Positions 4,582 through 24,088 of a DNA stretch of 34,024 nt are shown here, one piece after another. The stretch is from Promethearchaeia archaeon. Lineage in GTDB: Archaea > Asgardarchaeota > Lokiarchaeia > Sigyniarchaeales > SOKP01. The notes beneath the pieces are model-generated. The model worked only from the letters and a program-made list of their open reading frames with translations. It was not told the origin of the DNA and made no database searches. Location of the stretch: contig JAHQWJ010000065.1 of assembly GCA_029856125.1 (NCBI GenBank), positions 1-34,024 of the forward strand, given 5' to 3'. Made by a program: the position numbers and the translations under genes. Within the stretch, counting starts at the first letter, position 1; the number at the start of each line of letters is the position of its first letter.

Positions 4582-4837
4582 GTTAATCAAAAGCGAAGTA
4601 TTGATGATCATCTGATATTATTAATTTATACAATTAATGTTTTCCTAAAATCTTTTTCTCAAAATTTAGGACGTCAAATTTGAAAGTAGGTATAATATAA
4701 CCGCAAAGTTTTTTTCAAGACCAATTTGAATATGTTATTTTTTGACGGAATTGTTAAGGTTTTAATAGAAAACGATCATAATATTTCTTAACATTTCGAA
4801 TCCAAGATTAGAAAATATTTAGAAAGGTGAAAATAAT

Positions 4838-7738: not shown

Positions 7739-7929
7739 AGAAATACAATAATTTTAATTAATTTTGACTCATCGTTAGTATCTATTTTGCTTTTTTCTAT
7801 AGATGGTGGATTTTCTGAGGGGATTTTTACAATTTCCTGATGGGATTCACTATCAAAATTTAACAGAGAAAGGCTAGCGCATTACAATCCAATATGAACG
7901 AGTATTTCAATTAAAAACATTCATATATA

Positions 7930-7991
7930 TTCCAATTTATTTCTGCAAAAATTTCCAGTCTATTAAGAAAAAATTCCAGTTTATTATGGAA
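7930..7991. repeat. Three imperfect direct repeats TTCCA(A/G)T(T/C)TATT; the last forms TTCCA-N8-TGGAA
   Basis: Copies start at 7930, 7953 and 7974 (spacing 23 and 21 nt). Confidence 0.4.
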
Positions 7992-8040
7992 AACAGTTTG
8001 CTTTTCTTTTTAACAAGAAGTAAAATTAAACTTTGGAAAG

Positions 8041-9351
8041 TTATATTTCGAGTTGAATTTGCCCATAAGTTCCTCCTCCACCAGGAGTGTATTCAACTTT
8101 ATTATTTCTTATTGCTTCGATAACCGTGGCAATATTCTCGTCAAATTTTTTGATTTCTTCAATTTCTTTATCAATTAAAATATCAAATTCGGTGCCTAGT
8201 TCATTTACCATTTTATCATATGATTTTAAAACTGTAACACTATTAGTGCTCTTAATTTTTTTAACCGCTCGAATTATATCCATTAAAGGAACTGCATTGA
8301 CGTATGGAGGCCTATGATTTGGATGTATTGTTTCGGCTGAAGTAGAAATAACATCTATTCTTTCACTGACTCCTAACTTTATTTTGATGTTTTTGTTAAT
8401 TTTTTCTTTACAAGCAGGACACACAATTTTCCCCTTGGATACGTTGTTAATATATGCTTTTCTCGCATTTAAGGGATTTTCTGACACTATTTTTATGAAT
8501 TCTTCTGAAATAGTATATTCATTAAAAAGTGTATCTTTAGTTTTTTCTGATTTACCGAACATTATTCTTCTTCTACATTTGTTGCAGAACATGTTATAAT
8601 ATTTTCCTAGCTTCGGGTGAAGTCCTACATTTAGTTCAATCTTGCGTTGATTTTTTCTTTCTAAGGCTAGTGCTAGTTCATAAAACGAAGGGTTTTCCAT
8701 CCTAATTTTGTTAAATTCTCTTCCTAAAGAGCGAGGACTTTCAGAATGTGCATCGCTATTGCTCAGAAAAGATATGTTTTTAAGAGAATCTAATTTATCA
8801 GCTAAATCTGTATTAGCTGAAAGTCCTAATTCTAAAAATTTCACTTTTTTAACGGCATCCTGATAGCATTGTTCGAGAGTTGCGTACTTATTTTGGCGAA
8901 AAATTGCTCTAAATGGAGTAAAAGCATGAGCAGGACCTATCATAGCTCCAAAATCTGTGATGATGTCAACTAGTTCTGCAGGAGGTAAATTTACCCTTGG
9001 GCGACCCCCCCATTCACCCAAAATATTTTTTGAATACGGTTTAAATTTTTTTTGGACTTCTCTTACGGTTGAAAAATCAGGAAAAAAAACCACTTCGTGA
9101 ATACTATCTTGATCTTCTATTTCGGTTTGTAAAATGAAAAAGAGATCCTTATACGAGAATGTCCCATTGTCGTCTTTTTTCAAATTCTTTTCTAAATACT
9201 TTAACCAATCCGGTTGCAACACATCTCCTGTTCCAAGGATATGAAGCCCTTTTTTCTTACCGGTTTCGACCATTGTATCTAAATTAAGTTTTTTAGATAC
9301 TGCAATTGAATGAGGTGAGTGGATGTGTAAGTCAGCATTAAATGAATCCAT
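8041..9351 (-). CDS. Endonuclease Q family protein (PHP domain + zinc finger + helical domain)
   Basis: ADLHIHS, GTGD, PAHAFTP, ELGLS, NSDAHS, LGREFN, GKY, CxxC...CxxC, GVSERI, HRPPY, terminal PGGGGTYG. Confidence 0.88.
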   Translation of the reverse strand: MDSFNADLHIHSPHSIAVSKKLNLDTMVETGKKKGLHILGTGDVLQPDWLKYLEKNLKKDDNGTFSYKDLFFILQTEIEDQDSIHEVVFFPDFSTVREVQKKFKPYSKNILGEWGGRPRVNLPPAELVDIITDFGAMIGPAHAFTPFRAIFRQNKYATLEQCYQDAVKKVKFLELGLSANTDLADKLDSLKNISFLSNSDAHSESPRSLGREFNKIRMENPSFYELALALERKNQRKIELNVGLHPKLGKYYNMFCNKCRRRIMFGKSEKTKDTLFNEYTISEEFIKIVSENPLNARKAYINNVSKGKIVCPACKEKINKNIKIKLGVSERIDVISTSAETIHPNHRPPYVNAVPLMDIIRAVKKIKSTNSVTVLKSYDKMVNELGTEFDILIDKEIEEIKKFDENIATVIEAIRNNKVEYTPGGGGTYGQIQLEI

Positions 9352-11610: not shown

Positions 11611-12714
11611 CTAATATCTCGAAGGCGTTTTTGATTTGATTTTATATTTTGGTATTTCTTTTGTCTTTTTTAATTCTTTTTCAAAATCTCTTTTTTCTTT
11701 AAGAAATCTCTCTTTATCACTATCTAATCTTTGCCTCTCCTTTCTAATTGAAAATTTTGCATCCTCTATTTTCAATTTTTCCTTTTCCAATTTTTTTATT
11801 TCATCTTTTAAACTTTTCAATTTATTTTCTAAATTGCGAATTTTGTGTTCTAGTGAAAAATAAGTATTTTCAGCTTTAGGTACTTTCCTATCTAATTCTT
11901 TTAATCTTGTTTCTTGCCCTTTTTTCTTTCTTTCTAAATCTCTTACATCGTGATCTACATTCTCTTTAAATTTTCCCAATTTCTCTTTTTTTTTCTCAAT
12001 ATCACGAGCTTGAAGACCTAAATCCTTTTTCTTATAGCGAACCTTTTCTTTTTCATCTTTTAATCGCCTCTTCTCGTCAACAATTCGATTTTTTTCATCT
12101 ACTATCTCTCTTCTCAAACTATTGATTTCTTTGCTTAAATTATCTCTTTCTCTCGTTAAACTCTTAGATTCGTTTCTTAAATCCATTAAATTGTTTTCCA
12201 ACTTTTCAATTGTTCTCTCTAACGCACTCTCTCTCCGTTCCATTCCGGGCAACTTGGTTTTAATTTCTTTAATTCTTTCTGTTGCTTTTTCTTTTTCTCT
12301 TTTTATGTATTTCTTCTCACTTTCTAATTCGTCTCTTAATCCTTCTAATCTCTCTTGATATCGCTCTAGGTCAGCATTTTTCTGATCTAACTCCCTTTCT
12401 TTTTCATAGAGATTATTTTTACTTTCTTTTATTTCGTTTCTCATATTGTCTAATTTGTCTTTTAATTGTTCGTGTTGGTTTTGAAGGCCCCTTACTTGAA
12501 GTTCTTTTTCTTTTCTTTTTTTTTCTAAATCTTGAATGTTATCTTGATAGCCATCAATTTTATTGATAATTCGCTCCCATTCAGTTTTTTCTCTATTTAA
12601 TTTAATTCTTTCTTCCTTAATTTTTTTGAGTAATTTCGCATTAGGGATGGTATCTAGTTGCTCTTCTGGCGTTTTTTCTCGAATTTGATACTTTGGAATA
12701 GGCTTATCTTTCAT
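11611..12714 (-). CDS. Long coiled-coil protein (367 aa)
   Basis: Almost continuous K/E/R-rich heptad pattern; a near-identical IPKY-x-I-x-x-KTP motif at both termini. Confidence 0.85.
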   Translation of the reverse strand: MKDKPIPKYQIREKTPEEQLDTIPNAKLLKKIKEERIKLNREKTEWERIINKIDGYQDNIQDLEKKRKEKELQVRGLQNQHEQLKDKLDNMRNEIKESKNNLYEKERELDQKNADLERYQERLEGLRDELESEKKYIKREKEKATERIKEIKTKLPGMERRESALERTIEKLENNLMDLRNESKSLTRERDNLSKEINSLRREIVDEKNRIVDEKRRLKDEKEKVRYKKKDLGLQARDIEKKKEKLGKFKENVDHDVRDLERKKKGQETRLKELDRKVPKAENTYFSLEHKIRNLENKLKSLKDEIKKLEKEKLKIEDAKFSIRKERQRLDSDKERFLKEKRDFEKELKKTKEIPKYKIKSKTPSRY

Positions 12715-12893: not shown

Positions 12894-13280
12894 ATGGATG
12901 AAGATGGGTTTGACGAAGAATTTGATGAGGATTTTGATGAAAACTTGGAGGAAGATTATGACGAGCGCTCTACAAAGCACCCTACGAAAGATTTTAGAGC
13001 CAAGACCCCAGAACACAAAACCTCTTCTGAAGGAAAAAAGATCTCAGTTTTTTTTCTATCCACTATAGGCCCAGGGGAGAAAAAACAAAAATTGCTTGTA
13101 TTCACAGGGAATAAAGTTGGAGACATCAAAGAAACTGTAGCAAATTTATTTGCTTTAGACCCATCTGATTTTTACCTTAGTTCTGGAGGTGTAACTATGG
13201 ATGAGAATAACCAGTTAAATGATTACGATGTAGTTGACGGAGATGACATTTTATTAATTCCAGCTAGCATTGCTGGTTGA
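12894..13280 (+). CDS. Ubiquitin-fold modifier, paralogue A (acidic N-terminal tail, ends in a free Gly: IPASIAG)
   Basis: Beta-grasp pattern ISVFF...KLLV...VGDIKETVANLF.LDP.DFYL..GG..MDEN.QLNDY.V.DGDDILLI; about 70% identical by hand count (56/81) to the core of 17280..17609. Confidence 0.85.
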   Translation: MDEDGFDEEFDEDFDENLEEDYDERSTKHPTKDFRAKTPEHKTSSEGKKISVFFLSTIGPGEKKQKLLVFTGNKVGDIKETVANLFALDPSDFYLSSGGVTMDENNQLNDYDVVDGDDILLIPASIAG

Positions 13281-13377
13281 ATATATTTAAGAAAATCACA
13301 ATTAAAAAGAACCTCAATTTATGTTTTACTAAATTAAAGAATTACATTTTATTATATTAAATAATATATTATTTGAA

Positions 13378-14391
13378 GTGAATATTATGGTTGAATTCGA
13401 TATATGGAAACTTTATAAAATGATGTTGCGTAGTCGTCTTTTTGAGAATGCTGTGATGAAACTATGGGAAGAAGGATTGATTACGGGTGAAATGCACCTT
13501 GGAATCGGGGAGGAAGCAATTGTAGCGGGAGTCGTTTCACAATTAGAGGCCGGTGATGCTGTGGCGGTTACTCATAGAGGAACCTCCCAATTCTTAATGA
13601 GGGGGGTAGATCCCGTTTTATTATTACTAGAATTTTTTGGTCATCCTAAAGGCCTCTGCAAAGGACAAGGTGGTCATATGCATCTCTTTTCAAAAGAACA
13701 TTTAATGGCAGCATCAGGAATCGTAGGCTCGTCAGGGCCAGCAGCAACCGGTTTTGCACTAGCTTTAAGTTATAAAAAACAAAAAAAAATTGCCGTTGCG
13801 TTCTTCGGAGAAGGAGCAATAAATCAGGGGATGATGCTTGAATCTATGAATTTAGCGTCAGTTTGGAACTTGCCCGTTCTTTTTGTCTGCTGTGATAATA
13901 ATTGGGCAATTACGACGACTGCGAATAATAGTTTTGGAGGTACGATGCTTGATAGAGCTAAAGGTTTCGGAATTGAAGGATATAGTGTCAATGGAACAGA
14001 CATAGAAGCAGTTTGGAAAGTGGCAAACGAAGCAGTATCAAAGATACGTAATAGTAGTAGCCCTCAATTTATTCACGCAACTTGTACGCATTTGGAGGGT
14101 CATCTTCTTGGAGATTTGCTACTCAGGAATAATCGAGACCCTGCCTTGATGGCTGAAACTGCGGATTCTCTCAAACAATATGCTGGAGAAAGTTTAGATG
14201 AAGTGCTTTTGCTTTTGCGCAAAATTGGAGGACAAACTAAAAAAAAGGGAGATCCAATAGTTTTTATTAAAAAGAAGTTAAAAGACGAAGCGGATCGCCT
14301 TAAACAGATAGAGGAAGAAGTAGCCAAAGATATTGAACAAATAGTTAATAAAGCATTAGAAATTTCTAAAGGAGGGATGAAAAATGACTAA
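13378..14391 (+). CDS. 2-oxoacid/acetoin dehydrogenase E1 alpha subunit (TPP-dependent)
   Basis: GEMHLGIGEEA, THRG, GQGGHMH, TPP motif FGEGAINQG...NN. Start may be ATG 13387. Substrate cannot be assigned. Confidence 0.92.
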   Translation: MNIMVEFDIWKLYKMMLRSRLFENAVMKLWEEGLITGEMHLGIGEEAIVAGVVSQLEAGDAVAVTHRGTSQFLMRGVDPVLLLLEFFGHPKGLCKGQGGHMHLFSKEHLMAASGIVGSSGPAATGFALALSYKKQKKIAVAFFGEGAINQGMMLESMNLASVWNLPVLFVCCDNNWAITTTANNSFGGTMLDRAKGFGIEGYSVNGTDIEAVWKVANEAVSKIRNSSSPQFIHATCTHLEGHLLGDLLLRNNRDPALMAETADSLKQYAGESLDEVLLLLRKIGGQTKKKGDPIVFIKKKLKDEADRLKQIEEEVAKDIEQIVNKALEISKGGMKND

Positions 14392-15397
14392 AATGAACTT
14401 TGATCAAGCCATTGAAAGCGCGCTCGCACAAGCTATGGAAGAGGATGATAATATTATTATTATGGGAGAAGATGTGCACACTATACGATTAAATCTTTTT
14501 GCCCGATTCGGTAAGGAAAGAGTGAAATACACGCCTATAAGCGAGAGTGGATTTGTTGGTGCTGCAGTTACCGCTGCTATGGCTGGTTTACGACCTATTG
14601 CGGAAGTTATGCTTGCTGATTTTCTTGCTGTTACAATGGACGCTATTCTCAATCATGCAGCGAAAATTGCATTCTTTTCGGGTGATAAATGGAATGTTCC
14701 TCTCGTTATCAGAACCGCGTGTGGTGGTGGGTATGGCGATGCTGGACAGCACGAACAGAGTTTATGGGGTTGGTTAGCTCACATACCAGGATTATCAATT
14801 GTTGTTCCATCAAATCCTGCAGATGCAGGTGGATTAATGCTCTCTTCTATCTACGAAGATAATCCTGTAATTTATTTCGAACATAAATTATTATCTGATT
14901 TTTGGATGGAAAATATGGCTATAGGAGGGAGAACCACTGTTTCTTTTGAAGTGCCAGAACAAGGAGCAGAAGGAGAGGTACCAGATAAATGGAATCCAAT
15001 TCCTTTAGGATTACTCAATCGCATGAAAGAAGGAAACGATATTACGTTAGTGAGTCTTGGAGTGAGCGTACATCGATGCATGGAAGCTGCTAAAATCTTA
15101 GAAAGGAAAGGAATATCTGCCGAAGTCTTGGATTTAAGAACTGTAATACCACTGGATTTAGAAAATATAAAAAAATCCGTTGAAAAAACTGGAGTTTTAA
15201 TAGTTGTTGATGAAGATTATATGCAATTCGGACTTTCTGGTGAAATTTCGGCTCTGCTTTTAGAAGAGTGTTTATCTTTTAAATATGGTCGTGTTTGTAC
15301 CGAAAATACCATACCTTATTCTATAGATTTAGAATTGCAAGCACTCCCAAATACAGAGAGAATCGTGAATAAGGCTCTTAAAATTTTAAATAAGTAG
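14384..15397 (+). CDS. 2-oxoacid/acetoin dehydrogenase E1 beta subunit
   Basis: MGEDV, TPISESGFVG, GLRPIAE, QHEQS, PSNPADA, NPVIYFEHK, EVLDLRT..PLD; overlaps the alpha gene by 8 nt. Confidence 0.92.
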   Translation: MTKMNFDQAIESALAQAMEEDDNIIIMGEDVHTIRLNLFARFGKERVKYTPISESGFVGAAVTAAMAGLRPIAEVMLADFLAVTMDAILNHAAKIAFFSGDKWNVPLVIRTACGGGYGDAGQHEQSLWGWLAHIPGLSIVVPSNPADAGGLMLSSIYEDNPVIYFEHKLLSDFWMENMAIGGRTTVSFEVPEQGAEGEVPDKWNPIPLGLLNRMKEGNDITLVSLGVSVHRCMEAAKILERKGISAEVLDLRTVIPLDLENIKKSVEKTGVLIVVDEDYMQFGLSGEISALLLEECLSFKYGRVCTENTIPYSIDLELQALPNTERIVNKALKILNK

Positions 15398-15408
15398 TGC
15401 TCTATCAC

Positions 15409-15424
15409 ATTTTTCTTTTTTTTT
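15409..15424 (+). terminator. Oligo-T terminator after the E1 beta gene
   Basis: Long T-runs starting about 12 nt after the stop, between convergent genes. Confidence 0.4.
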
Positions 15425-15466
15425 ATATCGTACATTGGATAATTAATGGAGAGGAAATTTTGGATT

Positions 15467-16255
15467 TTATTTTTTTCTCGATGGAATCAAAGCAATTTCG
15501 TCATCATCATCAATAAAATAGTCCTTTATTTGCTTAGTTTCATCTAATATTATACCACCTGTGGAAAGGAGAAAATCTTCTAAACCATAATCAAATAGAA
15601 TTCCTACTTGTTCCTTGATTATATCTATGAATTCGGAGGTTTCAATAATGATGATTTTAGTTCTCTCCCCCGGTTCGACTAACGATCTTACATAAACCCG
15701 AACTTTATCATCCATTCCAATTGTGGTTAATGGAGGGTGGTATGTTATCTGTTCATCAGTTAAATCTTTATTTTTCCAAATATCATCAATAAGTTGCTTT
15801 CTCTCATCAGCATCAAAATACAACATCTCTCTGATAAAAAAGATTTTATCCATTTTTGAAAACCCTAACAAATCGATTTTATCTAATACTTCCTGAGTGA
15901 AAAATGTAAAAATATAATCATCGATTGACTCTATGTTTTCAAAGGATTCATCAGTATCAGCGTATTGATCTATTAATGGCATAGCTTCGATGTAATCCTC
16001 AACCAGATCGCGTGATATCCTTTTGACAGATTTTGGGTTTTGATAATATTTTTCTTTTTTTATCCTCTTTCCTGGGCTGCTTTTAGATTGAACAACGGTA
16101 TAAATCGTGCCTGTAGATAATACAGCAACGCTTCCAATAGTTAGAAAAAGAAATAAAGGTAAACTCTCTATTTGTAATAGGAAGAAAATCAAATAGATTA
16201 AAGCGAAAACAACATAAAGAGTAATAATATTTAAAACTCTGTATTTTTTCTTCAT
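15467..16255 (-). CDS. Membrane protein with two N-terminal TM helices and a C-terminal ubiquitin-fold domain (paralogue B, no terminal Gly)
   Basis: Two hydrophobic segments in the first 55 aa. The C-terminal VRVYVRSLVEPGERTK...DIIKEQVGILF....DFLLSTGGIILDETKQIKDY..DDDDEIALIPSRKK aligns by eye with the two soluble UBLs. Confidence 0.8.
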   Translation of the reverse strand: MKKKYRVLNIITLYVVFALIYLIFFLLQIESLPLFLFLTIGSVAVLSTGTIYTVVQSKSSPGKRIKKEKYYQNPKSVKRISRDLVEDYIEAMPLIDQYADTDESFENIESIDDYIFTFFTQEVLDKIDLLGFSKMDKIFFIREMLYFDADERKQLIDDIWKNKDLTDEQITYHPPLTTIGMDDKVRVYVRSLVEPGERTKIIIIETSEFIDIIKEQVGILFDYGLEDFLLSTGGIILDETKQIKDYFIDDDDEIALIPSRKK

Positions 16256-16271
16256 GATTTTTTGATTAAAG

Positions 16272-16304
16272 TATTATCTAATTTTCTAATTATTATCTAA
16301 TTTT
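16272..16304. repeat. 14-bp perfect direct repeat TATTATCTAATTTT (period 19)
   Basis: Copies at 16272-16285 and 16291-16304, immediately upstream of the membrane-UBL gene. Confidence 0.5.
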
Positions 16305-16340
16305 ATAAATTCAATTGGTATAAATTCGTAATTTTTATAA

Positions 16341-17018
16341 TTACCCATCAATAATTGACTTCCTAATATTTTCATATTTCTCTAGGTCTAATCGATATAG
16401 AACTCTTTTTTTATTTTTTTCAATTTTTATTATTTTGAGATTTCTTAATATTTCAAGATATTTCTTTACAGTATTGTAATTTCTTTTTAAATTTGCAGCT
16501 ATTTCCGTGATTTTAAAGGCATTATGTTCTTTTTTCAGAAGGTTGATAATATCTCGTACGATATCTTGTTTTAAATAGTAATACCACTCATCTAGATCGG
16601 AATTAGATTCGTATTCAAAAATCATTCTTTGATTATCGATTTTTTTTGATCGTGTAAATCTAAATTTTTCTAAACAGGATAAATGCCAAAGAGCTTGGTT
16701 GCTTCCAATATTGATTGCTTTCATTATATCATTAATGTTCGATGGATTTTTTCTTACATAATTATAGATTTCATTTCTTATTGGATGCTCAATGATGTTA
16801 TTTTTCATTAATTTAGTTCCAGGGATAAGAATTCTTTTTTTTATGAGATTTTTAATAATGAGTTCAATGCTGTTCCTATTTAAATTAGGATTCGATCTCA
16901 CTCTATTAGCGATGAACACGACAATATCTTCTATCGAAAAGAAAGGTTTCTTTTTTAGATATTCCTTTATCAGATTACAAACAATAGATTGAAGGTTATC
17001 CGGAGTGTTCATAAGCAA
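16341..17018 (-). CDS. Winged-helix transcriptional regulator with tandem ArsR-like HTH domains
   Basis: RNEIYNYVRKNP...INDIMKAINIGSNQALWHL..LEK and IINLL...ITEIAANLKRNYNTVKKYLEIL..LKII, plus an additional N-terminal helical/wH-like region. Confidence 0.82.
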   Translation of the reverse strand: MLMNTPDNLQSIVCNLIKEYLKKKPFFSIEDIVVFIANRVRSNPNLNRNSIELIIKNLIKKRILIPGTKLMKNNIIEHPIRNEIYNYVRKNPSNINDIMKAINIGSNQALWHLSCLEKFRFTRSKKIDNQRMIFEYESNSDLDEWYYYLKQDIVRDIINLLKKEHNAFKITEIAANLKRNYNTVKKYLEILRNLKIIKIEKNKKRVLYRLDLEKYENIRKSIIDG

Positions 17019-17265
17019 TTTATTTTAAAGGGTTGAATTATTTGATTTCTATAATCAAATCTTCGCTCTAAAACGATATTTTCCAAATTATATATATTGA
17101 TAGACATTCATTTAATTTATAAATATAAGATATTAGGTTTTTTAATGCAAATACTTACATTTTAACCAAAATTCAAAAAACTTCAAAATCATACCAATGG
17201 GTTATTTAATGTAAGTACATCATCAAATTATTAAGTTTTAAAAAAAAACTTAAATTAAAAAAATA

Positions 17266-17274
17266 AAGGAGTGA
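17266..17274 (+). promoter_or_regulatory. Ribosome-binding site of the UBL operon leader gene
   Basis: AAGGAGTGA ending 5 nt before ATG 17280. Confidence 0.6.
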
Positions 17275-17279
17275 TTTGA

Positions 17280-17609
17280 ATGAGTTTTGAAGAAGATTTT
17301 GATGAGGAATTAGAGCCAGTTAACTCTAAAACCCCATCAAGCAAAGTACCCTCAACAGGCAAGAAATTGACATTATATTTCATGTCAACTATTGGTCCTG
17401 GTGAAAAGAAGGAAAAATTGACTGTAAACGACGCTAATGAAGTAAGTGATATCAAACAAACGCTAGGAAATCTATTTGGACTTGATCCAGACGATTTTCA
17501 TATTTCATCCGGAGGAGTAACAATGGATGAGAATAGCCAGTTAAAAGACTATAGTGTTAATAATGGCGACGACATTCTTTTAATCCCAGCGAGTACAGCT
17601 GGTAAATAA
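17280..17609 (+). CDS. Ubiquitin-fold modifier, paralogue C (pro-form, ends IPASTAG-K)
   Basis: Beta-grasp pattern with ubiquitin-like QLKDY; first gene of the E1-E2-JAMM-RING operon; single penultimate Gly, no di-Gly. Confidence 0.88.
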   Translation: MSFEEDFDEELEPVNSKTPSSKVPSTGKKLTLYFMSTIGPGEKKEKLTVNDANEVSDIKQTLGNLFGLDPDDFHISSGGVTMDENSQLKDYSVNNGDDILLIPASTAGK

Positions 17610-17703: not shown

Positions 17704-18939
17704 ATGGTGATAATAATGGGTAAAGATTCAGATTTTTTTGCAAAAGGAATGTCAGAGGAAGAGAGAGACTTATACGATCGCCAATTTCGTTTAGAAGGAT
17801 GGTCCCAAAAATTAGTTAAGAATTCAAGAGTGTTAATAGCGGGTGTAGGGGGTTTGGGATGTGAAATTGCTAAAAATTTGGCTATGTTAGGTGTAGGTCA
17901 TATAGATCTTGTTGATATTGATATAATTGAACATTCTAATCTGAACCGTCAAATTCTCTTTGCTGGAGCAAAGTTAGGAGAACCTAAAGCATTTATTGCT
18001 GCTAGAAAATTGACTGAAATTAACCCCAATATTATTGTTAAAGGGTATCATACATCCTTAGAAAGATTAAATCCAGCACTCTATCACGCTTCAGATGTTG
18101 TAATTGGAGGTCTTGATTCGATGAATGCAAGGTTGAACTTAAACGCTCAATGCATTAGATTTAAAAAACCTTTGGTAGATGGGGGGGTTTCTGGTTATTA
18201 TGGTCACATATATACGATATTTCCATATCAAAATGCATGTTATGAATGTAATCCATTACCAGACATCAAGAATGATGATATGGCAGCTTGTACAGTAGTT
18301 GGAATCCCTCGAAAAAGAATTCATTGTGTTTTTAAAGGAGATATGGCCTTTAAAGAGAAATTTGACAAAGATCCGAATCCTAAAAATATCGAGGATATCA
18401 AATTTATTCAAAAAGTTGCAAATGAATACGTAGTAAAACACAATTTCTTACCTGAATATACTGAAGATGATGTCGTAAAAATTATTGATCGCCACGATCC
18501 AGGGATCATTACGATTAACGCAACTATTTCAGCATTACAATCTCACGAAGTGGTTAAAATCCTTCATTGGGAAAAAGGTCACAAGGGTTTAGGTGAGCCC
18601 ATCAAAAATTACATTATATTTAATGCAGTGACTATGAAATTACACCACATTGAAAAGAAGAGAAATCCAGAATGTTCTCAATGTGGTAAAAGTGCAAGAC
18701 GAGTTTCCATTAAAATGAGAGATATTTCACCTTGCGTAAATATAATTAAAACACTAGAAAGAAATGGATTTGAATTGGATTCTGAATTTGAACCGATAAT
18801 AACTCTATTGGATTTTAATGATATTATTGTTTTAGATTTAGAGCAAAATCCAACTCAAAACGGTTTAAGGAATTACGAATTTCTAACTGTTGCGGGGTTT
18901 AAAGGTGGAGAAATTTACGTAACCTTAAAAATTAAATAA
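17704..18939 (+). CDS. Ubiquitin-like activating enzyme E1 (ThiF/MoeB adenylation domain + UBA2/UBA3-type catalytic Cys domain + putative C-terminal ubiquitin-fold domain)
   Basis: YDRQFRL, GVGGLGCEIAKNL, D-x-D-x-IEHSNLNRQ-x-LF, LDS-x-x-AR, Zn ligands CYEC and CSQC, catalytic segment ACTVVGIPR-x-x-IHC. Confidence 0.93.
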   Translation: MVIIMGKDSDFFAKGMSEEERDLYDRQFRLEGWSQKLVKNSRVLIAGVGGLGCEIAKNLAMLGVGHIDLVDIDIIEHSNLNRQILFAGAKLGEPKAFIAARKLTEINPNIIVKGYHTSLERLNPALYHASDVVIGGLDSMNARLNLNAQCIRFKKPLVDGGVSGYYGHIYTIFPYQNACYECNPLPDIKNDDMAACTVVGIPRKRIHCVFKGDMAFKEKFDKDPNPKNIEDIKFIQKVANEYVVKHNFLPEYTEDDVVKIIDRHDPGIITINATISALQSHEVVKILHWEKGHKGLGEPIKNYIIFNAVTMKLHHIEKKRNPECSQCGKSARRVSIKMRDISPCVNIIKTLERNGFELDSEFEPIITLLDFNDIIVLDLEQNPTQNGLRNYEFLTVAGFKGGEIYVTLKIK

Positions 18940-18996: not shown

Positions 18997-19524
18997 ATGA
19001 GTATAAGAAGTAGTCGAGTTTCCCGAGATTTTGCGGGACTAAAAAAGTTGCTAAAGCAGGGTACTATTATTCAATTGAAGCCATTTAATCCAAAAAAGAA
19101 GAGCATCGATCACTTAGCTTTATTGATTAAAGGTCCTAAAGGTACTGCCTATGCTGGGGGATTGTTTAAATTAGAAATGAAGTTTCCAGTTCAATATCCT
19201 AAACAACCTCCTTTTGTCCGATTGCATACTCCTATATGGCATCCAAATTTTTGGCCAAAACCAAGTGAGTATAAAGGACAAAGAAATATTTGCTTAGCTT
19301 TAGTAGATCCATCTCTAGTTGGAAAAAAAGGGGGATGGAGTCCTTCAAAAACAGCAGTTACAGTCGTTCAATCAATTATTGCTATGTTAAACACTCATGG
19401 AAAATATGTTAATCCAACTGATGTGTTTAATAAAAAAGCAGCTATAGAAATGATGAAAAATCCGAAATTTTTTGATAAAAAAGTAAAAACTTTAGTAAAG
19501 AAGTATGCCAAGGATAAATGGTGA
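18997..19524 (+). CDS. Ubiquitin-conjugating enzyme E2 (UBC fold)
   Basis: GP-x-GT-x-Y-x-GGLF-x-L...FP..YP..PP...TPIWHPN...ICL...WSP...VVQSIIAML. Confidence 0.95.
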   Translation: MSIRSSRVSRDFAGLKKLLKQGTIIQLKPFNPKKKSIDHLALLIKGPKGTAYAGGLFKLEMKFPVQYPKQPPFVRLHTPIWHPNFWPKPSEYKGQRNICLALVDPSLVGKKGGWSPSKTAVTVVQSIIAMLNTHGKYVNPTDVFNKKAAIEMMKNPKFFDKKVKTLVKKYAKDKW

Positions 19525-19531
19525 ACCTAGA

Positions 19532-20335
19532 ATGAATTTCGATGAAAAGAATAGCGATTCTATCAGAGATGCTATAAAACAAAGAATTAAAGAGAAAATT
19601 AAAAAAGAATTACTTGAAGAAGTATACACAGAATTACAATTAGAAGAATTACAAGAAGAATTAACAACAGAAATTATCAAGGCGAAACCTATAGTTCATT
19701 CAAAAGAATTCAAAGCAAAACTTGAACCCATCCCGATGGAACCAGTAAAAACTACAGCTAGCAATGACAGAACTAAAGCTAAAATAGCTATCACTTCAAC
19801 AGCAATTCTTAAAATCGCGAGTCATTCATTAAAATATGCTAATTCTAAAATACATAGAGATGATTGGGTGGAAGTAATAGGTTTACTAGCAGGGAACTTT
19901 GATAGTTCTAAAGGAATCCTAAATCTGGAAGATGCTTATCCAATGGGACATGGAACAGCGGTCTATGCTGAAATAAAGGATTATAAGAATTATGTTAGAG
20001 CTTACAGAGATATTAAAAAAAAGGGACTGTTTATATGTGGTTGGTATCATTCTCATCCTTCTTATGGATGCTTCATGTCAAGAGAAGATTTAGGAACTCA
20101 AGCAAGATATCAAAAATTGTGGAATAAAGCTGTAGCACTCGTCATCGATCCATATCAAATTAACGGGAAATCGTTTGGTTTTGAAATTTATCGTGCAAAT
20201 TTTAAGACCAGGAAATGGTTCTCAGTGCCTTTTGATATTAAGGGGCATTTAGATGTGATGATGTTACCCGAAATTTTAGAATTCATGAACCCAATAATTG
20301 ATGGCAAACCAGTATATTTAGAATATGATGAATAA
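19532..20335 (+). CDS. JAMM/MPN+ metallo-isopeptidase (Rpn11/CSN5-like) with an N-terminal helical extension
   Basis: EVIGLLAG, GWYHSHP-x-YG-x-x-x-S-x-x-D-x-x-TQ, VALVIDP. ATG 19532 follows GGTGA (the track opens at 19505). Confidence 0.93.
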   Translation: MNFDEKNSDSIRDAIKQRIKEKIKKELLEEVYTELQLEELQEELTTEIIKAKPIVHSKEFKAKLEPIPMEPVKTTASNDRTKAKIAITSTAILKIASHSLKYANSKIHRDDWVEVIGLLAGNFDSSKGILNLEDAYPMGHGTAVYAEIKDYKNYVRAYRDIKKKGLFICGWYHSHPSYGCFMSREDLGTQARYQKLWNKAVALVIDPYQINGKSFGFEIYRANFKTRKWFSVPFDIKGHLDVMMLPEILEFMNPIIDGKPVYLEYDE

Positions 20336-21641: not shown

Positions 21642-22199
21642 ATGAATAACGAAAGAGTACAAGAACTTATAACACATCTTATTAAAGAAATTGAGGGAAA
21701 TGATCATTTACGACCAGCAACGAAAGAAACTCCAAAACGAGTAGCTAACGCTTATAACGAAATATTTGAAGGTTATCAACAAGATTTAGATAAGGATATA
21801 AAAATTTTTAAAGCGCAATATAGTGAAATTATTGTATCGAGAGGTATTCAATTTTATAGCATGTGTGAACACCACATCTTACCCTTTTATGGTACAGTTG
21901 ATATTGTATATATGCCTGGAGAATTTCTTTTAGGTATATCAAAATTCGTTAGAGTAGTTAATTATTTTACACATAGGTTAAATGTTCAAGAAAAAATGAC
22001 CGATGATATTGCTAATTATTTAATGAACTGCATTTTAAAACCAAGAGGAGTAATGGTTATAGTCAAAGGAACTCACTTGTGTGAGATAATGAGAGGTGTA
22101 AAACAATCTAACCCAATAATGGTTACCTCGGCTATAAAAGGAATATTTAAAACAAACCCTACGAGCAGATCAGAGGCATTGGAACTTCTAAAGATCTAG
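21642..22199 (+). CDS. folE: GTP cyclohydrolase I (type IA)
   Basis: ETPKRVA, FYSMCEHHILPFYG, GISKF, RLNVQEKMT, HLCEIMRGV. Confidence 0.95.
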   Translation: MNNERVQELITHLIKEIEGNDHLRPATKETPKRVANAYNEIFEGYQQDLDKDIKIFKAQYSEIIVSRGIQFYSMCEHHILPFYGTVDIVYMPGEFLLGISKFVRVVNYFTHRLNVQEKMTDDIANYLMNCILKPRGVMVIVKGTHLCEIMRGVKQSNPIMVTSAIKGIFKTNPTSRSEALELLKI

Positions 22200-22263
22200 A
22201 AACATCGTAATATCTTAATTGTAAAATTTTTAAATTAAAAAAGAAAAAACTTCTGAGCGTCTT

Positions 22264-23433
22264 ATGCCTAGAACGATCATTTACAGCGATTATGGTTTGA
22301 TTGGAGACGAATTGGAACTAAAAACGAATGTTTCGATAGAAATAGATAAAAATGGAAAGATCGCTAAACTTGTTTATGATAATATTCGAGATGATATTAC
22401 TTACTCGAATCAACCAAATTACATTATGATTCCAGGGCTAATAAATTCCCATATTCATATTTGCGATAGTTTTGCTAAAGAACAGGGTTTTAATAAAGAT
22501 TTATTAGAAGTTGTTGCTCCTCCAGATGGGTTAAAGCACAAATTGTTAGGAAGTATCTCAAAAGAGATTAAAACGCAAGGAATAAGAGAAGCAGCTTCAG
22601 AAATGCTAGCGAATGGTATAACTTCGTTTGTAGATTTTAGAGAAAATGGATTAACGGGTATAAATCTTTTAAAAGAGGCTTTAGATAATTCTCCAATTAA
22701 TTATCGTATTTTGGGAAGATATAACAATTCGGAAGATGCGAAATCCGTTCTGAAAAACGCTGATGGATTAGGTTTTGCGAGTTATGATCAACTTCCTCCT
22801 AAACATAAAGAAAATTTAGTTTTATTGAAAGAACAAAATTTAGAGAAAACTATTGCGTGTCATGATGCTGAGCTCTCGAGGGATGAGTTCCTGTTTAATA
22901 AAATAATAGATGACAAATTAATAGATGTCATTATACATGGAACGCAGTACACAATAGAAGATTTAAAAAGAATTAAGGAGAATAATATATCTTTGGTCTT
23001 ATGTCCTAGATGTAACGGTTATTTTGGAAGTGGATTTCCACCGATAAGCGAGATTACTAAGTTGGGAATCCCTATAAGTCTTGGTACTGATAATGTAATG
23101 GCAAACAATATTGATTTATTCGAAGAGATGCGTTATTTGTATAGAATTTCCCGTGTATTAGCAACCGGTAAGGAAGATAGTCATTTATCATCAAAAGAAT
23201 TACTAAAAATGGTTAGTGTTAATGCAGCTAAAAACATGGGATTGCATAAAGAGTTCGGGTCAATTTCAGAGGGCAAGTATGCAGATTTCTCTTTATTGAA
23301 TCTTTCTGATCCAAACTACTATACATATAAGATTGATAAAGAAAATATTTATAATATCATTGTTCAAAGAACAAAATCAGAAAACATAAAGAAGACATAT
23401 ATTAAAGGTGAGGTTGAATTTGAAAGGAATTGA
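22264..23433 (+). CDS. Metal-dependent amidohydrolase/deaminase (SsnA/chlorohydrolase-like)
   Basis: PGLINSHIH, G-x-T-x-FVDFRE, CHDAE, IHGT, VLCPR, LGTDN, GSI-x-x-GK-x-AD. Confidence 0.88.
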   Translation: MPRTIIYSDYGLIGDELELKTNVSIEIDKNGKIAKLVYDNIRDDITYSNQPNYIMIPGLINSHIHICDSFAKEQGFNKDLLEVVAPPDGLKHKLLGSISKEIKTQGIREAASEMLANGITSFVDFRENGLTGINLLKEALDNSPINYRILGRYNNSEDAKSVLKNADGLGFASYDQLPPKHKENLVLLKEQNLEKTIACHDAELSRDEFLFNKIIDDKLIDVIIHGTQYTIEDLKRIKENNISLVLCPRCNGYFGSGFPPISEITKLGIPISLGTDNVMANNIDLFEEMRYLYRISRVLATGKEDSHLSSKELLKMVSVNAAKNMGLHKEFGSISEGKYADFSLLNLSDPNYYTYKIDKENIYNIIVQRTKSENIKKTYIKGEVEFERN

Positions 23434-24088
23434 ACGCCCTTACGTAATTTTGAGTGCTGCGATGACAATTGATGGAAAAATTGCTTCTAAAACGGGTGAT
23501 CCAGATATTTCAGATGAAGAAGATTGGAAATTGGTTCATAAACTTCGAACTGAAGTAGATGCAATTATGGTTGGTAAAGGTTCAATTATATTGGATAACC
23601 CAAAACTACACATTAAATATTACGAGCACAAAGGTTATTATCGCGTTGTATTAGATAGCAATCTTTCAATACCAATTGGATCAAATGTGGTAACTTATAA
23701 ACCTGATATTTACCCCACTATTATAGTAACGACTGAAAATGCTCCTATCGAGAAGATTAAAGAATTCGAATCCAAAAAAGTTGAAATTATAAAGTCAGGT
23801 AAAGGGCGTAGAGTTGATGTAGTTGAATTAATGCCCATTTTGCATAATAAGGGAATAAAAAGGATTCTTTTAGAGGGCGGAGGTAATTTAAATTGGAGTT
23901 TTATTAAAAATAATTTAGTAGATGAGATTAGATTAGCAATTGCGCCTTGGATGGTTGGAGGTAAAAATGCCGTGAGTTTAGTGGAAGGAGATGGTTATGC
24001 AAAGATGCTTGAGAGTCCAAGATATTATTTATCTGATGTGAGTAGTAGAAATAACTATGTAACTCTTAACTATAAAAAAGAAAAATGA
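23408..24088 (+). CDS. 2,5-diamino-6-(ribosylamino)-4(3H)-pyrimidinone 5'-phosphate reductase (RibG/Rib7/ArfC-type, RibD C-terminal domain)
   Basis: RPYVILSAAMTIDGKIA, VHKLR..VDAIMVG, DNPKL, RVVLDS, LLEGGG.LNWSF..LVDEI. Start may be TTG 23420 after GGTGA. Confidence 0.88.
   Translation: MRLNLKGIERPYVILSAAMTIDGKIASKTGDPDISDEEDWKLVHKLRTEVDAIMVGKGSIILDNPKLHIKYYEHKGYYRVVLDSNLSIPIGSNVVTYKPDIYPTIIVTTENAPIEKIKEFESKKVEIIKSGKGRRVDVVELMPILHNKGIKRILLEGGGNLNWSFIKNNLVDEIRLAIAPWMVGGKNAVSLVEGDGYAKMLESPRYYLSDVSSRNNYVTLNYKKEK

What the first reader, a model, noticed from the sequence alone, without database searches (positions are those of the whole stretch)
12894..17609. One UBL family in three forms: pre-matured, pro-form and membrane-tethered non-conjugatable
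Seen: three genes within 5 kb share the core S-x-x-x-PGE...DF-x-x-S-x-GG-x-x-x-DE-x-x-Q-x-x-DY...D-x-I-x-LIP. Paralogue A ends IPASIAG-stop (exposed Gly). Paralogue C ends IPASTAG-K (one residue to remove). Paralogue B is fused behind two TM helices and ends IPSRKK (no Gly). A and C are about 70% identical with many synonymous codon differences, consistent with an old duplication under selection. Inference: A bypasses JAMM maturation, C is protease-gated, and B is a membrane adaptor or decoy recruiting UBL-binding partners, analogous in concept to eukaryotic integral UBL-domain membrane proteins such as HERP/Usa1/TMUB.
Basis: partly seen in the sequence, partly recalled or inferred. Interest (0 to 1): 0.82.

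Follow-up and report, generated by a model that had tools for sequence, protein, structure and literature searches.

The report
Lokiarchaeal ubiquitin-like paralogues, one membrane-anchored
A Lokiarchaeal ubiquitin gene cluster carries two near-equivalent conjugatable ubiquitin-like modifiers plus a conserved membrane-anchored copy that cannot be conjugated and is always co-transcribed with a DNA-binding regulator, but the proposed "ready-made versus protease-gated" split between the two free copies is not conserved.

Summary
A (12894-13280), C (17280-17609) and the C-terminal domain of B (15467-16255, minus strand) are paralogues: A/C are 65% identical (E 3e-45) and B matches A and C at about 35% (E 1e-17). 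They lie in a block conserved in at least 20 related Lokiarchaeal genomes: A> <B <wHTH | C> E1> E2> JAMM> 6-TM RING-like.

A's exposed Gly is conserved (105 of 120 relatives). C's extra Lys is not: 14 of 20 C orthologues also stop at ...AG, and short caps occur sporadically in both types. Assigned by synteny, A and C differ at 5 of 83 core positions, share the PASxAG tail, and differ mainly in the length of the acidic N-tail.

B is a conserved family of about 420 proteins: a 2-TM hairpin, a helical module, and a ubiquitin-fold domain with a basic tail lacking Gly in 119 of the 120 closest relatives. It is under purifying selection. New points here:
- The helical module recurs on cytoplasmic tails of large receptor-like proteins of the same archaeal family.
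- wHTH>B is a bicistron in all 21 clusters, and 5 of 18 such receptor genes have a paralogous wHTH upstream.
- Tri-UBL precursors exist in the family.
- The RING-TM protein predates B.

B's partners remain untested. Earlier notes of this scan described B-type proteins in other genomes.

The parts
12894..13280 (+). UBL paralogue A. It has an acidic (FDE)n disordered N-tail (aa 1-45), a beta-grasp core (aa 46-123) and the tail P-A-S-I-A-G followed by stop.
   Evidence: ORF. Pfam ubiquitin 18.6 bits, below the cut-off. 879 relatives; 105 of the 120 best end at AG-stop. Convergent neighbour of B in at least 18 other genomes.
13378..15397 (+). Two genes for 2-oxoacid dehydrogenase E1 alpha and beta, lying between A and B. 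This is a local insertion and not part of the UBL system.
   Evidence: Pfam E1_dh and Transket_pyr/Transketolase_C. In the other clusters compared, where A was located (18 of 20), A and B lie about 20-60 bp apart or overlap.
15467..16255 (-). B: a membrane-anchored protein with a non-conjugatable UBL domain (262 aa).
   Evidence: ORF. About 420 relatives of about 262 aa in Lokiarchaeota/Promethearchaeota. dN/dS is 0.09-0.14 in every module. UBL domains of B form one clade, support 100/99.
16091..16237 (-). B's TM hairpin: TM1 aa 7-28 and TM2 aa 32-55. TM2 is S/T-rich and nearly invariant. The predicted topology is N-in/C-in.
   Evidence: Hydropathy and flanking K/R, AF2 helices, conservation. 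The topology is inferred from the positive-inside rule.
15767..15931 (-). B's helical tail module (aa 109-163, four short helices), shared with the cytoplasmic tails of large receptor-like proteins of the same archaeal family.
   Evidence: AF2 pLDDT 85-89. Profile search hits the C-termini of proteins of 270-2080 aa. Found in 21 of 25 genomes of family f1 and 1 of 125 elsewhere in the phylum sample. No known fold or family could be assigned.
15482..15706 (-). B's ubiquitin-fold domain (aa 184-258), followed by the Gly-less tail S-R-K-K (15470-15481).
   Evidence: AF2 pLDDT 75-84. Foldseek matches ISG15, ubiquitin, NEDD8 and Caldiarchaeum Ub at TM 0.8-0.92, rmsd about 1.5 A. 41 of 42 family members hit Pfam ubiquitin, best E 2e-7. 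Tail statistics.
16341..17018 (-). wHTH (ArsR/HTH_24-type) regulator, directly upstream of B on the same strand (gap 85 bp).
   Evidence: Pfam HTH_5 and others, atlas neighbours. Present in the same position in 20 of 20 other clusters. It is the only strong member of its subfamily in this genome.
17019..17279 (.). Divergent intergenic region with blocks conserved across two genera: paired TATA-like elements, a block of about 30 nt near 17175-17209, and a GGAGTGAT ribosome-binding site before C.
   Evidence: Alignment of 10 genomes with 77% mean column identity. A promoter or operator function is inferred.
17280..17609 (+). UBL paralogue C, first gene of the operon. It has a short acidic N-tail (aa 1-25), a beta-grasp core and the tail P-A-S-T-A-G plus one Lys.
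   Evidence: ORF. Pfam ubiquitin 25.0-25.6 bits, at the cut-off. The family profile hits ubiquitin in the PDB. Orthologue tails.
17704..18939 (+). E1-like activating enzyme (ThiF family).
   Evidence: Pfam ThiF 1.7e-57. Syntenic in 16 of 17 genomes.
18997..19524 (+). E2-like conjugating enzyme (UBC fold).
   Evidence: Pfam UQ_con 2e-25. Syntenic in 16 of 17 genomes.
19505..20335 (+). JAMM/MPN+ metalloprotease with an intact HxH-x7-S-xx-D motif. It is the candidate processing and deconjugating enzyme.
   Evidence: Pfam JAB 5e-14, motif read, syntenic in 16 of 17 genomes. The processing role is inferred from Caldiarchaeum Rpn11 (PMC5654768, PMC6043591).
20369..21493 (+). Polytopic membrane protein with a T/R/S-rich linker and a C-terminal C4-H-(D/E)-C2 RING-like finger.
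   Evidence: Sequence. Invariant C297, C300, C317, C320, H325, D327/E328, W332, C339, C342. Present in 65 of 81 genomes of the order, including genera without B.

Best explanation
The region is a lineage-specific elaboration of the archaeal, eukaryote-type ubiquitylation cassette of a Lokiarchaeal genome.

C heads the operon C-E1-E2-JAMM-(6-TM RING-like). A is a second, free-standing copy, and D on another contig is a third. All three are conjugation-competent ubiquitin-type modifiers. Their terminal Gly aligns with ubiquitin G76, they share the same P-A-S-x-A-G tail, and their cores are nearly the same. They are therefore most likely charged by the same E1 and E2.

A and C differ consistently only in the length of a disordered acidic, Phe-studded N-tail and in gene context (own promoter versus operon). 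I read them as sub-functionalised by expression or by tail-dependent partners, and not by maturation state. They are presumably trimmed by the operon JAMM protease, the activity that must also cut the head-to-tail tri-UBL precursors found in relatives.

B is an N-in/C-in hairpin membrane protein. Its cytoplasmic part is a family-specific helical module followed by a ubiquitin-fold domain whose conserved basic, Gly-less end rules out E1 activation, so B acts non-covalently. B is always co-transcribed with a wHTH regulator, divergently from the ubiquitin operon. Paralogous wHTH genes precede some receptor-like proteins carrying the same module. The most likely role of B is therefore a membrane-resident accessory: a docking or regulatory unit working with its wHTH partner that presents a ubiquitin-like surface to components of this system at the membrane.

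Shown: homology, fold, synteny, selection and tail conservation. Inferred: E1 sharing, JAMM trimming, topology, and every binding partner of B.
For: - Cassette: ThiF, UQ_con and JAB domains plus a RING-like finger. The block A> <B <wHTH | C-E1-E2-JAMM-RING is conserved in at least 20 genomes for the left half and 16 of 17 for the operon.
- Modifier identity: the family profile's best PDB hits are ubiquitins, and the alignment extended to the end places the terminal Gly at Ub G76. B's domain has the ubiquitin fold.
- A and C nearly equivalent: 5 of 83 type-specific core positions, identical tail, N-tail medians 50 aa with 22 D/E versus 25 aa with 7 D/E. dN/dS about 0.14.
- Caps are unstable. 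Tri-UBL precursors with ...STAG junctions and FF or FI caps require a protease that cuts after AG.
- Caldiarchaeum precedent: pro-Ub is refractory to E1 until the Rpn11 homologue cleaves it (PMC5654768; PMC6043591).
- B: conserved over its full length; the tail lacks Gly in 119 of the 120 closest relatives and in all 18 syntenic clusters; purifying selection in all modules; single origin.
- wHTH>B in 21 of 21 clusters. 5 of 18 module-bearing receptor-like genes have a strong wHTH paralogue directly upstream, against one such gene among 3,466 ORFs of at least 100 aa in this genome.
- Single-UBL genomes keep the UBL in the C position, so A and B are later additions.
Against: - No biochemical or expression data exist for any of these genes.
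- No partner of B has been identified.
- The RING-TM protein and the operon occur without B in several genera, so B is dispensable for the core reaction.
- 13 of 18 module-bearing genes lack an upstream wHTH, so the module-wHTH link is not general.
- The helical module matches no known ubiquitin-, E2- or DNA-binding-protein-interacting fold.
- A second E1/E2 pair exists in the genome, so exclusive use of the operon E1 by A, C and D is not proven.
- Here A and B are separated by 2.2 kb, which shows their adjacency is not essential.
Confidence: 0.45

Rival explanations
1. One reading: a conserved division of labour by maturation state. A is made ready for E1 and bypasses the protease, and C is a pro-form whose use is gated by JAMM cleavage.
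For: In this genome A ends at Gly and C carries one extra Lys. An uncleaved archaeal pro-ubiquitin is refractory to its E1 (PMC5654768). A-type genes end at Gly in 105 of 120 relatives.
Against: 14 of 20 syntenic C orthologues also end at Gly. Caps vary between genomes of the same genus and also occur on A-type genes. D, a C-like copy, has a different cap. The A and C cores and tails are nearly identical.
Confidence: 0.08
2. B is a decoy or competitive inhibitor. Its dead-end ubiquitin-fold domain occupies the UBL-binding site of E1, E2 or JAMM at the membrane and damps the cascade. It is co-expressed with the operon's regulator.
For: B keeps many family-invariant surface motifs shared with A and C (PGEK, DF-LS-GG, DY, LIP) but cannot be adenylated. 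It is transcribed divergently from the operon together with a regulator.
Against: A decoy needs no membrane anchor, no conserved polar TM2 and no conserved helical module. 17 core or tail positions are conserved in B but differ from A and C, including the whole tail, which argues for a distinct partner surface.
Confidence: 0.15
3. B is a dedicated membrane-anchored acceptor. Chains of A or C are built on lysines of its ubiquitin-fold domain, giving a membrane-fixed poly-UBL signal, comparable to ubiquitin-fusion substrates.
For: The lysines of the PGEK loop and the alpha-1 'IK' are conserved in A, B and C. A membrane RING-like E3 is encoded in the same cluster.
Against: The conserved 'IK' Lys aligns with the buried Ub K27, so it is probably structural. 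There is no evidence that this family forms chains. B is absent from many genomes that have the operon.
Confidence: 0.08
4. B's ubiquitin-fold domain has nothing to do with the ubiquitylation enzymes. B belongs to a family-specific 'TM + helical tail module' signalling system paired with wHTH regulators, and the beta-grasp is just an interaction or stability domain recruited by duplication of a neighbouring gene.
For: The module occurs on many receptor-like proteins without any UBL. wHTH pairing is shared with some of them. Beta-grasp domains are common generic adaptors (general knowledge).
Against: B has kept its place inside the ubiquitin cluster across at least four genera. B's UBL is the most constrained part of the protein (dN/dS 0.087). 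In many relatives the same module follows a Cys/His finger with weak RING or B-box similarity, which again ties it to ubiquitin-type chemistry.
Confidence: 0.12

Closest known systems
Archaeal eukaryote-type ubiquitylation operon (Caldiarchaeum subterraneum Ub-E1-E2-srfp RING plus Rpn11 homologue; also reported in Asgard archaea; PMC5654768, PMC6043591)
   Same: Clustered modifier, ThiF-type E1, UBC-fold E2, JAMM protease and RING-like protein. Some copies have a C-terminal extension beyond Gly. B's domain superposes on Caldiarchaeum Ub (6fno_D).
   Different: The tail is Ala-Gly and not Gly-Gly. Caps are 0-6 residues and unstable, whereas Caldiarchaeum has a 9-residue propeptide. The modifier carries an acidic disordered N-tail. 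There are three conjugatable paralogues plus a membrane-anchored dead-end copy. The RING-like protein is a polytopic membrane protein and not a small soluble finger.
HERP (HERPUD1) / yeast Usa1 / TMUB1: integral UBL-domain membrane proteins of ER-associated degradation (general knowledge)
   Same: A membrane hairpin or TM segments plus a cytoplasmic, non-conjugatable ubiquitin-fold domain. B is encoded beside a membrane RING-type protein, as those proteins work with Hrd1 or gp78.
   Different: No sequence relationship was detected beyond the generic ubiquitin fold. The domain order is reversed relative to HERP and Usa1 (UBL at the C-terminus). B has a helical module with no counterpart and is paired with a wHTH regulator. 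No binding to the RING protein has been shown, and that protein occurs without B in many genomes.
MUB / UBL3: membrane-anchored ubiquitin-fold proteins of eukaryotes (general knowledge)
   Same: A ubiquitin fold fixed to the cytoplasmic face of a membrane with its C-terminal Gly replaced, so it acts non-covalently. MUBs dock E2 enzymes.
   Different: MUBs are anchored by prenylation of a C-terminal CAAX box. B has no Cys near its end and is anchored by an N-terminal TM hairpin. E2 binding was not tested.
Eukaryotic ubiquitin precursors (polyubiquitin with one or a few cap residues after the last Gly; general knowledge)
   Same: Relatives of this family include head-to-tail tri-UBL proteins capped by two residues.
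   Different: Each repeat includes the acidic N-tail and linker. The window itself has only single-unit genes. The processing enzyme would be a JAMM protease, since papain-type DUBs are not known in archaea (PMC6043591).
UFM1
   Different: The Pfam Ufm1 model finds nothing in this genome even at E up to 1. The family profile's 60 best PDB matches include ubiquitins, designed ubiquitin variants, HUB1, FAT10 and Caldiarchaeum Ubl, but no UFM1. The E2 is a canonical UBC-fold protein.

Membership tests
Ubiquitin family (Pfam PF00240), conjugatable modifiers | Sequence match to the family model at or above the curated cut-off | tested here: inconclusive
   C scores 25.0 bits (cut-off 25.4; 25.6 with neighbouring stretches). 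A scores 18.6-19.3, D 21.5 and B 14.6-17.1, all below the cut-off. The family profile hits ubiquitin chains in the PDB at E 1e-5 for di-Ub and about 0.03 for mono-Ub.
Ubiquitin family (Pfam PF00240), conjugatable modifiers | Beta-grasp fold of the ubiquitin type | tested here: met
   B's domain: AF2 pLDDT 75-84 with a beta-beta-alpha-beta-beta-beta order; Foldseek TM 0.8-0.92 and rmsd 1.4-1.6 A to ISG15, Ub and NEDD8. A and C were not modelled. They are 35% identical to B's domain.
Ubiquitin family (Pfam PF00240), conjugatable modifiers | C-terminal Gly available for adenylation by an E1 | tested here: met
   A ends ...AG-stop. C and D have AG plus 1-2 residues. Not met for B, whose last Gly is the internal S-x-GG motif and which ends SRKK.
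Ubiquitin family (Pfam PF00240), conjugatable modifiers | Covalent attachment to substrates through E1 and E2 | not testable with these tools
   Needs biochemistry. Only the gene neighbourhood supports it.
Archaeal eukaryote-type ubiquitylation operon | Clustered modifier, E1 (ThiF), E2 (UBC) and JAMM protease | tested here: met
   Pfam ThiF 1.7e-57, UQ_con 2e-25, JAB 5e-14. JAMM motif intact. The order is conserved in 16 of 17 genomes.
Archaeal eukaryote-type ubiquitylation operon | RING-type E3 component | tested here: inconclusive
   The finger C-x2-C-x16-C-x2-C-x4-H-x-D/E-x10-C-x2-C with an invariant Trp is conserved. Pfam gives only a weak Zn_ribbon_15 hit, E 0.069. No fold was computed.
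HERP / Usa1 / TMUB integral UBL-domain membrane proteins | TM segment(s) plus a cytoplasmic, non-conjugatable ubiquitin-fold domain | tested here: met
   The topology is inferred from charge distribution.
HERP / Usa1 / TMUB integral UBL-domain membrane proteins | Sequence homology to those families outside the generic UBL | tested here: not met
   Pfam scans of B and 41 relatives list no HERP/Usa1/TMUB-specific model. Apart from generic UBL-type models, the other weak hits are mostly to small membrane-protein models (DUF2614, TRAP-gamma). The atlas finds only B's own cluster.
HERP / Usa1 / TMUB integral UBL-domain membrane proteins | Physical association with a membrane RING E3 | not testable with these tools
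   No usable result was obtained here. It needs pull-down or co-purification. Phyletically the RING-TM protein does not depend on B.
MUB / UBL3 | C-terminal CAAX prenylation box | tested here: not met
   B ends ...IPSRKK with no Cys. The family tails are all basic.
UFM1 | Match to the Ufm1 family model | tested here: not met
   PF03671 has no match in the whole genome at E up to 1.

The most novel reading that the evidence does not exclude
B, its wHTH partner and the 6-TM RING-like ligase form an archaeal membrane-proximal ubiquitin signalling unit. The helical tail module tethers the wHTH regulator at the membrane. The dead-end ubiquitin-fold domain recruits the E2/RING or JAMM machinery, which then controls release or turnover of the regulator. 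The same logic would operate in the receptor-like 'ectodomain-TM-finger-module' proteins of this family. This would be a prokaryotic forerunner of ubiquitin-controlled, membrane-tethered transcription factor activation and of ERAD-type UBL scaffolds.
Probability: 0.12. Interest if true: 0.85.

Novelty: new variant of a known kind. Interest (0 to 1): 0.55.

Why it matters
Asgard ubiquitin systems are the best available models for how eukaryotic ubiquitin signalling began. This cluster shows that one Lokiarchaeal family had already diversified its modifier. It has several conjugatable paralogues with disordered acidic tails, polyubiquitin-like precursors in relatives, and a genetically membrane-anchored copy that cannot be conjugated. 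Such integral UBL-domain membrane proteins were otherwise known only from eukaryotes. The link between that copy, a private wHTH regulator and a family-specific tail module shared with receptor-like finger proteins gives a concrete hypothesis that recombinant proteins can test: membrane events may be coupled to the ubiquitin operon. The work also corrects an attractive but unsupported idea, that the paralogues differ by maturation state.

Tried and rejected
1. Complex prediction of B with the 6-TM RING-like protein, both given as alignments: score 0.01, no verdict. It is not used for or against binding.
2. Identity of B's helical module: Foldseek against the PDB found nothing at E below 3. The VIA wide search gave a best Z of 4.8 to generic three-helix bundles. 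The PDB sequence profile gave nothing below E 0.18. Pfam gave only sub-threshold hits (Cue1_U7BR E 0.14-0.44, FliG_N 2e-4; RING, B-box and IBR at 0.025-0.43 for the adjacent finger). No family is assigned.
3. UFM1 relationship: no Pfam Ufm1 hit in the genome.
4. Dedicated second E1 for A: the 527-aa E1 on contig C128 is present in 80 of 81 genomes of the order, whether or not A or B is present, so there is no co-variation.
5. B as an obligate partner of the RING-TM protein: the RING-TM protein is found in 65 of 81 genomes, including genera without B.
6. 'K-x-K-T-P' as a shared docking motif of the UBL linkers and the neighbouring coiled-coil protein: 15 occurrences observed against 14.6 +/- 3.4 expected genome-wide, so it is not enriched.
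7. The PDB entries 8HM1-3 hit by the UBL profile are Bacteroides ubiquitin homologues, not archaeal.
8. P0244, an apparent UBL-E1 fusion, reads like a read-through or gene-calling artefact.
9. Literature searches found no description of an Asgard membrane-anchored UBL or of poly-UBL precursors. The library is incomplete, so this is weak evidence of novelty.

Full report
**What is there.**
- A: 12894-13280, plus strand, 128 aa, ends ...IPASIAG-stop.
- C: 17280-17609, plus strand, 109 aa, ends ...IPASTAGK-stop.
- B: 15467-16255, minus strand, 262 aa, ends ...LIPSRKK-stop.

A and C are 65% identical over 95 residues (E 3e-45). B's last 80 residues or so match C at 35% (E 1e-17) and A at E 5e-17. 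B starts with two hydrophobic segments (aa 7-28 and 32-55) flanked by Lys/Arg-rich stretches at the N-terminus and after TM2. By the positive-inside rule both ends are cytoplasmic.

**Context.** C is followed by a ThiF-type E1, a UBC-fold E2, a JAMM protease with an intact HxH-x7-S-xx-D motif, and a polytopic membrane protein ending in a conserved C4-H-(D/E)-C2 finger. This is the known archaeal eukaryote-type ubiquitylation cassette, which was reconstituted for Caldiarchaeum (PMC5654768; PMC6043591). Upstream of B on the same strand lies a wHTH regulator gene (16341-17018). Between A and B lie two 2-oxoacid dehydrogenase E1 genes.

**Conservation of the arrangement.**
- A search of 81 genomes of the order found the family in 65 of them. 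Full-length B occurs only in genera g1, g2, g6 and g7 of one family.
- Fetching 20 clusters showed the block A> <B <wHTH C> in two genera and beyond. A and B converge within about 20-60 bp or overlap. The 2.2-kb gap in this window is a local insertion.
- The wHTH gene is directly upstream of B in 20 of 20 other clusters.
- C-E1-E2-JAMM-RING is intact in 16 of 17.
- Genomes with a single UBL keep it immediately upstream of the E1. C's position is therefore ancestral, and A and B are later additions.
- In a tree of the core domains, B forms one clade (support 100/99) on a long branch. C and D cluster together among A-type sequences.

**Testing the 'three forms' reading.**
- A-type relatives end exactly at ...IPAS[I/V/T]AG in 105 of the 120 best hits. 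The exposed Gly of A is conserved.
- Of 20 syntenic C orthologues, 14 also stop at ...IPASTAG. The other six carry K, TFK, LN, KLI, YF, YE or KV.
- Two A-type genes carry CYIERI or YF.
- Caps differ between genomes of the same genus.
- With types assigned by synteny in 18 genomes, only 5 of 83 core positions are type-specific, all conservative changes. The P-A-S-x-A-G tail is shared. The robust difference is the disordered acidic N-tail: median 50 aa with 22 Asp/Glu and 4 Phe in A, against 25 aa with 7 and 2 in C.
- dN/dS for A vs C is at most about 0.14, with synonymous sites near saturation. D vs C is likewise old.

The paralogues are therefore old and selected, but maturation state is not what separates them.

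**Why trimming still matters.** The length class 'longer' revealed tri-UBL proteins (P0242, P0243). In these, complete units (acidic tail, linker, beta-grasp...STAG) follow each other head to tail and end with FF or FI. The same search found N-terminal fusions that keep an AG end. Such precursors need a protease that cuts after AG. By analogy with Caldiarchaeum Rpn11, the operon JAMM is the candidate. In this genome A needs no trimming, and C and D need removal of one or two residues. This is a sequence-level statement, not a demonstrated regulatory switch.

**What kind of modifier.**
- The family profile hits ubiquitin itself in the PDB. The matched stretch runs to Ub L67, and extending it without gaps to the C-terminus puts the terminal Gly at Ub G76 and the preceding Ala at G75. 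The family's invariant Ser falls at Ub I44.
- No Ufm1-family match exists anywhere in the genome.
- The genome also holds D (contig C145).
- It holds a fifth, more canonical ubiquitin-family ORF ending QAGG (contig C56).
- There is a second E1/E2 pair on contig C128 and there are six JAB-domain matches in the genome.
- The second E1 is present in 80 of 81 genomes, whatever their A and B content. Nothing ties it to A.

**B in detail.**
- About 420 relatives, nearly all about 262 aa, come from Lokiarchaeota/Promethearchaeota metagenomes.
- Tails are IPSRKK, IPSRKEKN and similar. They are basic, and 119 of the 120 closest relatives have no Gly there.
- The whole protein is conserved, including a polar, almost invariant TM2. 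Every module is under purifying selection, and the UBL most strongly (dN/dS 0.087).
- AF2 gives a confident beta-grasp (pLDDT 75-84) that superposes on ISG15, ubiquitin, NEDD8 and Caldiarchaeum Ub (TM up to 0.92).
- The nearest Gly to the end is the internal S-x-GG motif, so no processing could expose a conjugatable end without destroying the fold.

**A new lead on B's middle region.**
- A profile of B's non-UBL part, searched against 1.84 billion representatives, hit 109 proteins. Beyond B-type proteins, positions 73-165 (often with the preceding TM) match the extreme C-terminus of proteins of 270-2,080 aa.
- Those proteins carry extracellular-type domains (NosD/beta-helix, LamG plus TSP3, beta-propeller) and a single TM before the tail. 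The named ones come from Lokiarchaeota, Hodarchaeota and Promethearchaeota MAGs.
- Many have a Cys/His finger (C-x2-H...C-P-x-C...C-x2-C...C-W-S-C) just before the module. Others have two modules in tandem.
- Modelled alone, the module is a compact helical bundle (pLDDT 85-89). It has no convincing structural or sequence relative.
- It is confined to this archaeal family: 21 of 25 genomes against 1 of 125 elsewhere in the phylum sample. It is expanded to 5-14 copies in a genus that lacks B. In this genome only B has it.

**The wHTH link.** Earlier notes of this scan on other genomes claimed that such module proteins each travel with their own DNA-binding partner. I tested this.
- Among 18 module-bearing genes in relatives, 5 have a full-length paralogue of B's wHTH partner (E 1e-50 to 1e-66) directly upstream on the same strand.
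- In this genome only one of 3,466 ORFs of at least 100 aa, B's own partner, reaches even E 1e-20.
- The other 13 have unrelated upstream genes.

The pairing is real but not universal. The divergent region between wHTH and C (17019-17279) contains blocks conserved across two genera, as expected for regulated promoters.

**B and the membrane RING-like protein.** The RING-TM protein is found in 65 of 81 genomes, including genera and families without B. It predates B and functions without it. B is an accessory, not a core subunit.

**Conclusion.** The finding describes a real, conserved and apparently undescribed elaboration of the Asgard ubiquitin cassette. Its most eye-catching inference, ready-made versus protease-gated paralogues, does not survive comparison with orthologues. 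The membrane-anchored dead-end UBL does survive, and it gains a firmer outline:
- a hairpin anchor;
- a family-specific helical tail module;
- a ubiquitin fold with a basic, Gly-less end;
- a strict bicistron with a wHTH regulator.

How it works is inferred, not shown. I favour a docking or regulatory accessory acting with its wHTH partner (confidence 0.45). The rivals are a decoy, an acceptor, or a role unrelated to the ubiquitin enzymes.

Noticed in passing
G000 contig C145, L004:1519-1851 (+): A fourth paralogue, D (110 aa, 83% identical to C, ends ...IPASTAG-IL), lies next to a small antitoxin-like ORF and a RelE/ParE-like ORF. Synonymous sites against C are saturated (pS 0.70), so it is not a recent copy.
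   Followed up: partly
G000 contig C56, L044:2820-3073 (+): A fifth ubiquitin-family ORF scores above Pfam's cut-off (38.6 bits) and has a canonical exposed ...ATQAGG end followed by two stops. Its only in-frame ATG is followed immediately by TGA (ATG-TGA-AAA-GAC...), so the start is unclear. This could be a sequencing error, a non-canonical start or recoding.
   Followed up: no
G000 contig C128, L025:4515-6098 (+) and 7828-8337 (-): A second E1 (527 aa, with a long insertion) and a second UBC-fold E2 (169 aa) have no UBL gene beside them. They lie next to a coiled-coil or repeat protein of more than 1,400 aa. This E1 is present in 80 of 81 genomes of the order.
   Followed up: partly
window 13378-15397 (+): The 2-oxoacid dehydrogenase E1 alpha and beta genes sit between A and B only in this genome among the 21 clusters compared. 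In the others where A was located (18 of 20), A and B converge within about 20-60 bp or overlap.
   Followed up: yes
proteins P0242 and P0243 (metagenomic relatives, short contigs): Head-to-tail tri-UBL precursors of this family. Each unit includes the acidic tail and K-S-K-T-P linker and ends ...STAG, with a final FF or FI cap. This is an archaeal counterpart of polyubiquitin genes.
   Followed up: partly
proteins P0274, P0276, P0284, P0291, P0302, P0305 and others (relatives); loci L045-L062: Large receptor-like proteins have the order ectodomain, one TM, Cys/His finger (C-x2-H...C-P-x-C...C-x2-C...C-W-S-C), then B-type helical module. Others carry two modules in tandem. The finger has only sub-threshold RING, B-box or IBR similarity.
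   Followed up: partly
window 17019-17279: Conserved non-coding blocks lie between the wHTH-B bicistron and the C operon: two TATA-like elements flanking TAGACATTCAT, a block of about 30 nt (CTTCAAAATCAT.CCAATGGGTT) near 17175-17209, and a GGAGTGAT ribosome-binding site.
   Followed up: partly
window 11611-12714 (-): A coiled-coil protein divergent from A has ...KYQIREKTP near its N-terminus and ...KYKIKSKTP at its C-terminus, recalling the K-x-K-T-P linker of the UBLs. The motif is not enriched genome-wide (15 observed against 14.6 expected), so this may be coincidence.
   Followed up: partly
L053:4668-5225 (-) and L059-L062: Some module-bearing genes without a wHTH partner are preceded instead by a Ras-like small GTPase gene (L053). 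Four others are preceded by a conserved secreted protein of about 342 aa with an Asp-rich N-terminal region.
   Followed up: no
window 5752-6894 (-), 1624-4611 (-), 21642-26290 (+): Other genes in the window include a tubulin/FtsZ-family protein and alanyl-tRNA synthetase. A run of genes follows the operon: GTP cyclohydrolase I, an amidohydrolase, a RibD C-terminal reductase and two radical-SAM genes (CofH-like).
   Followed up: no
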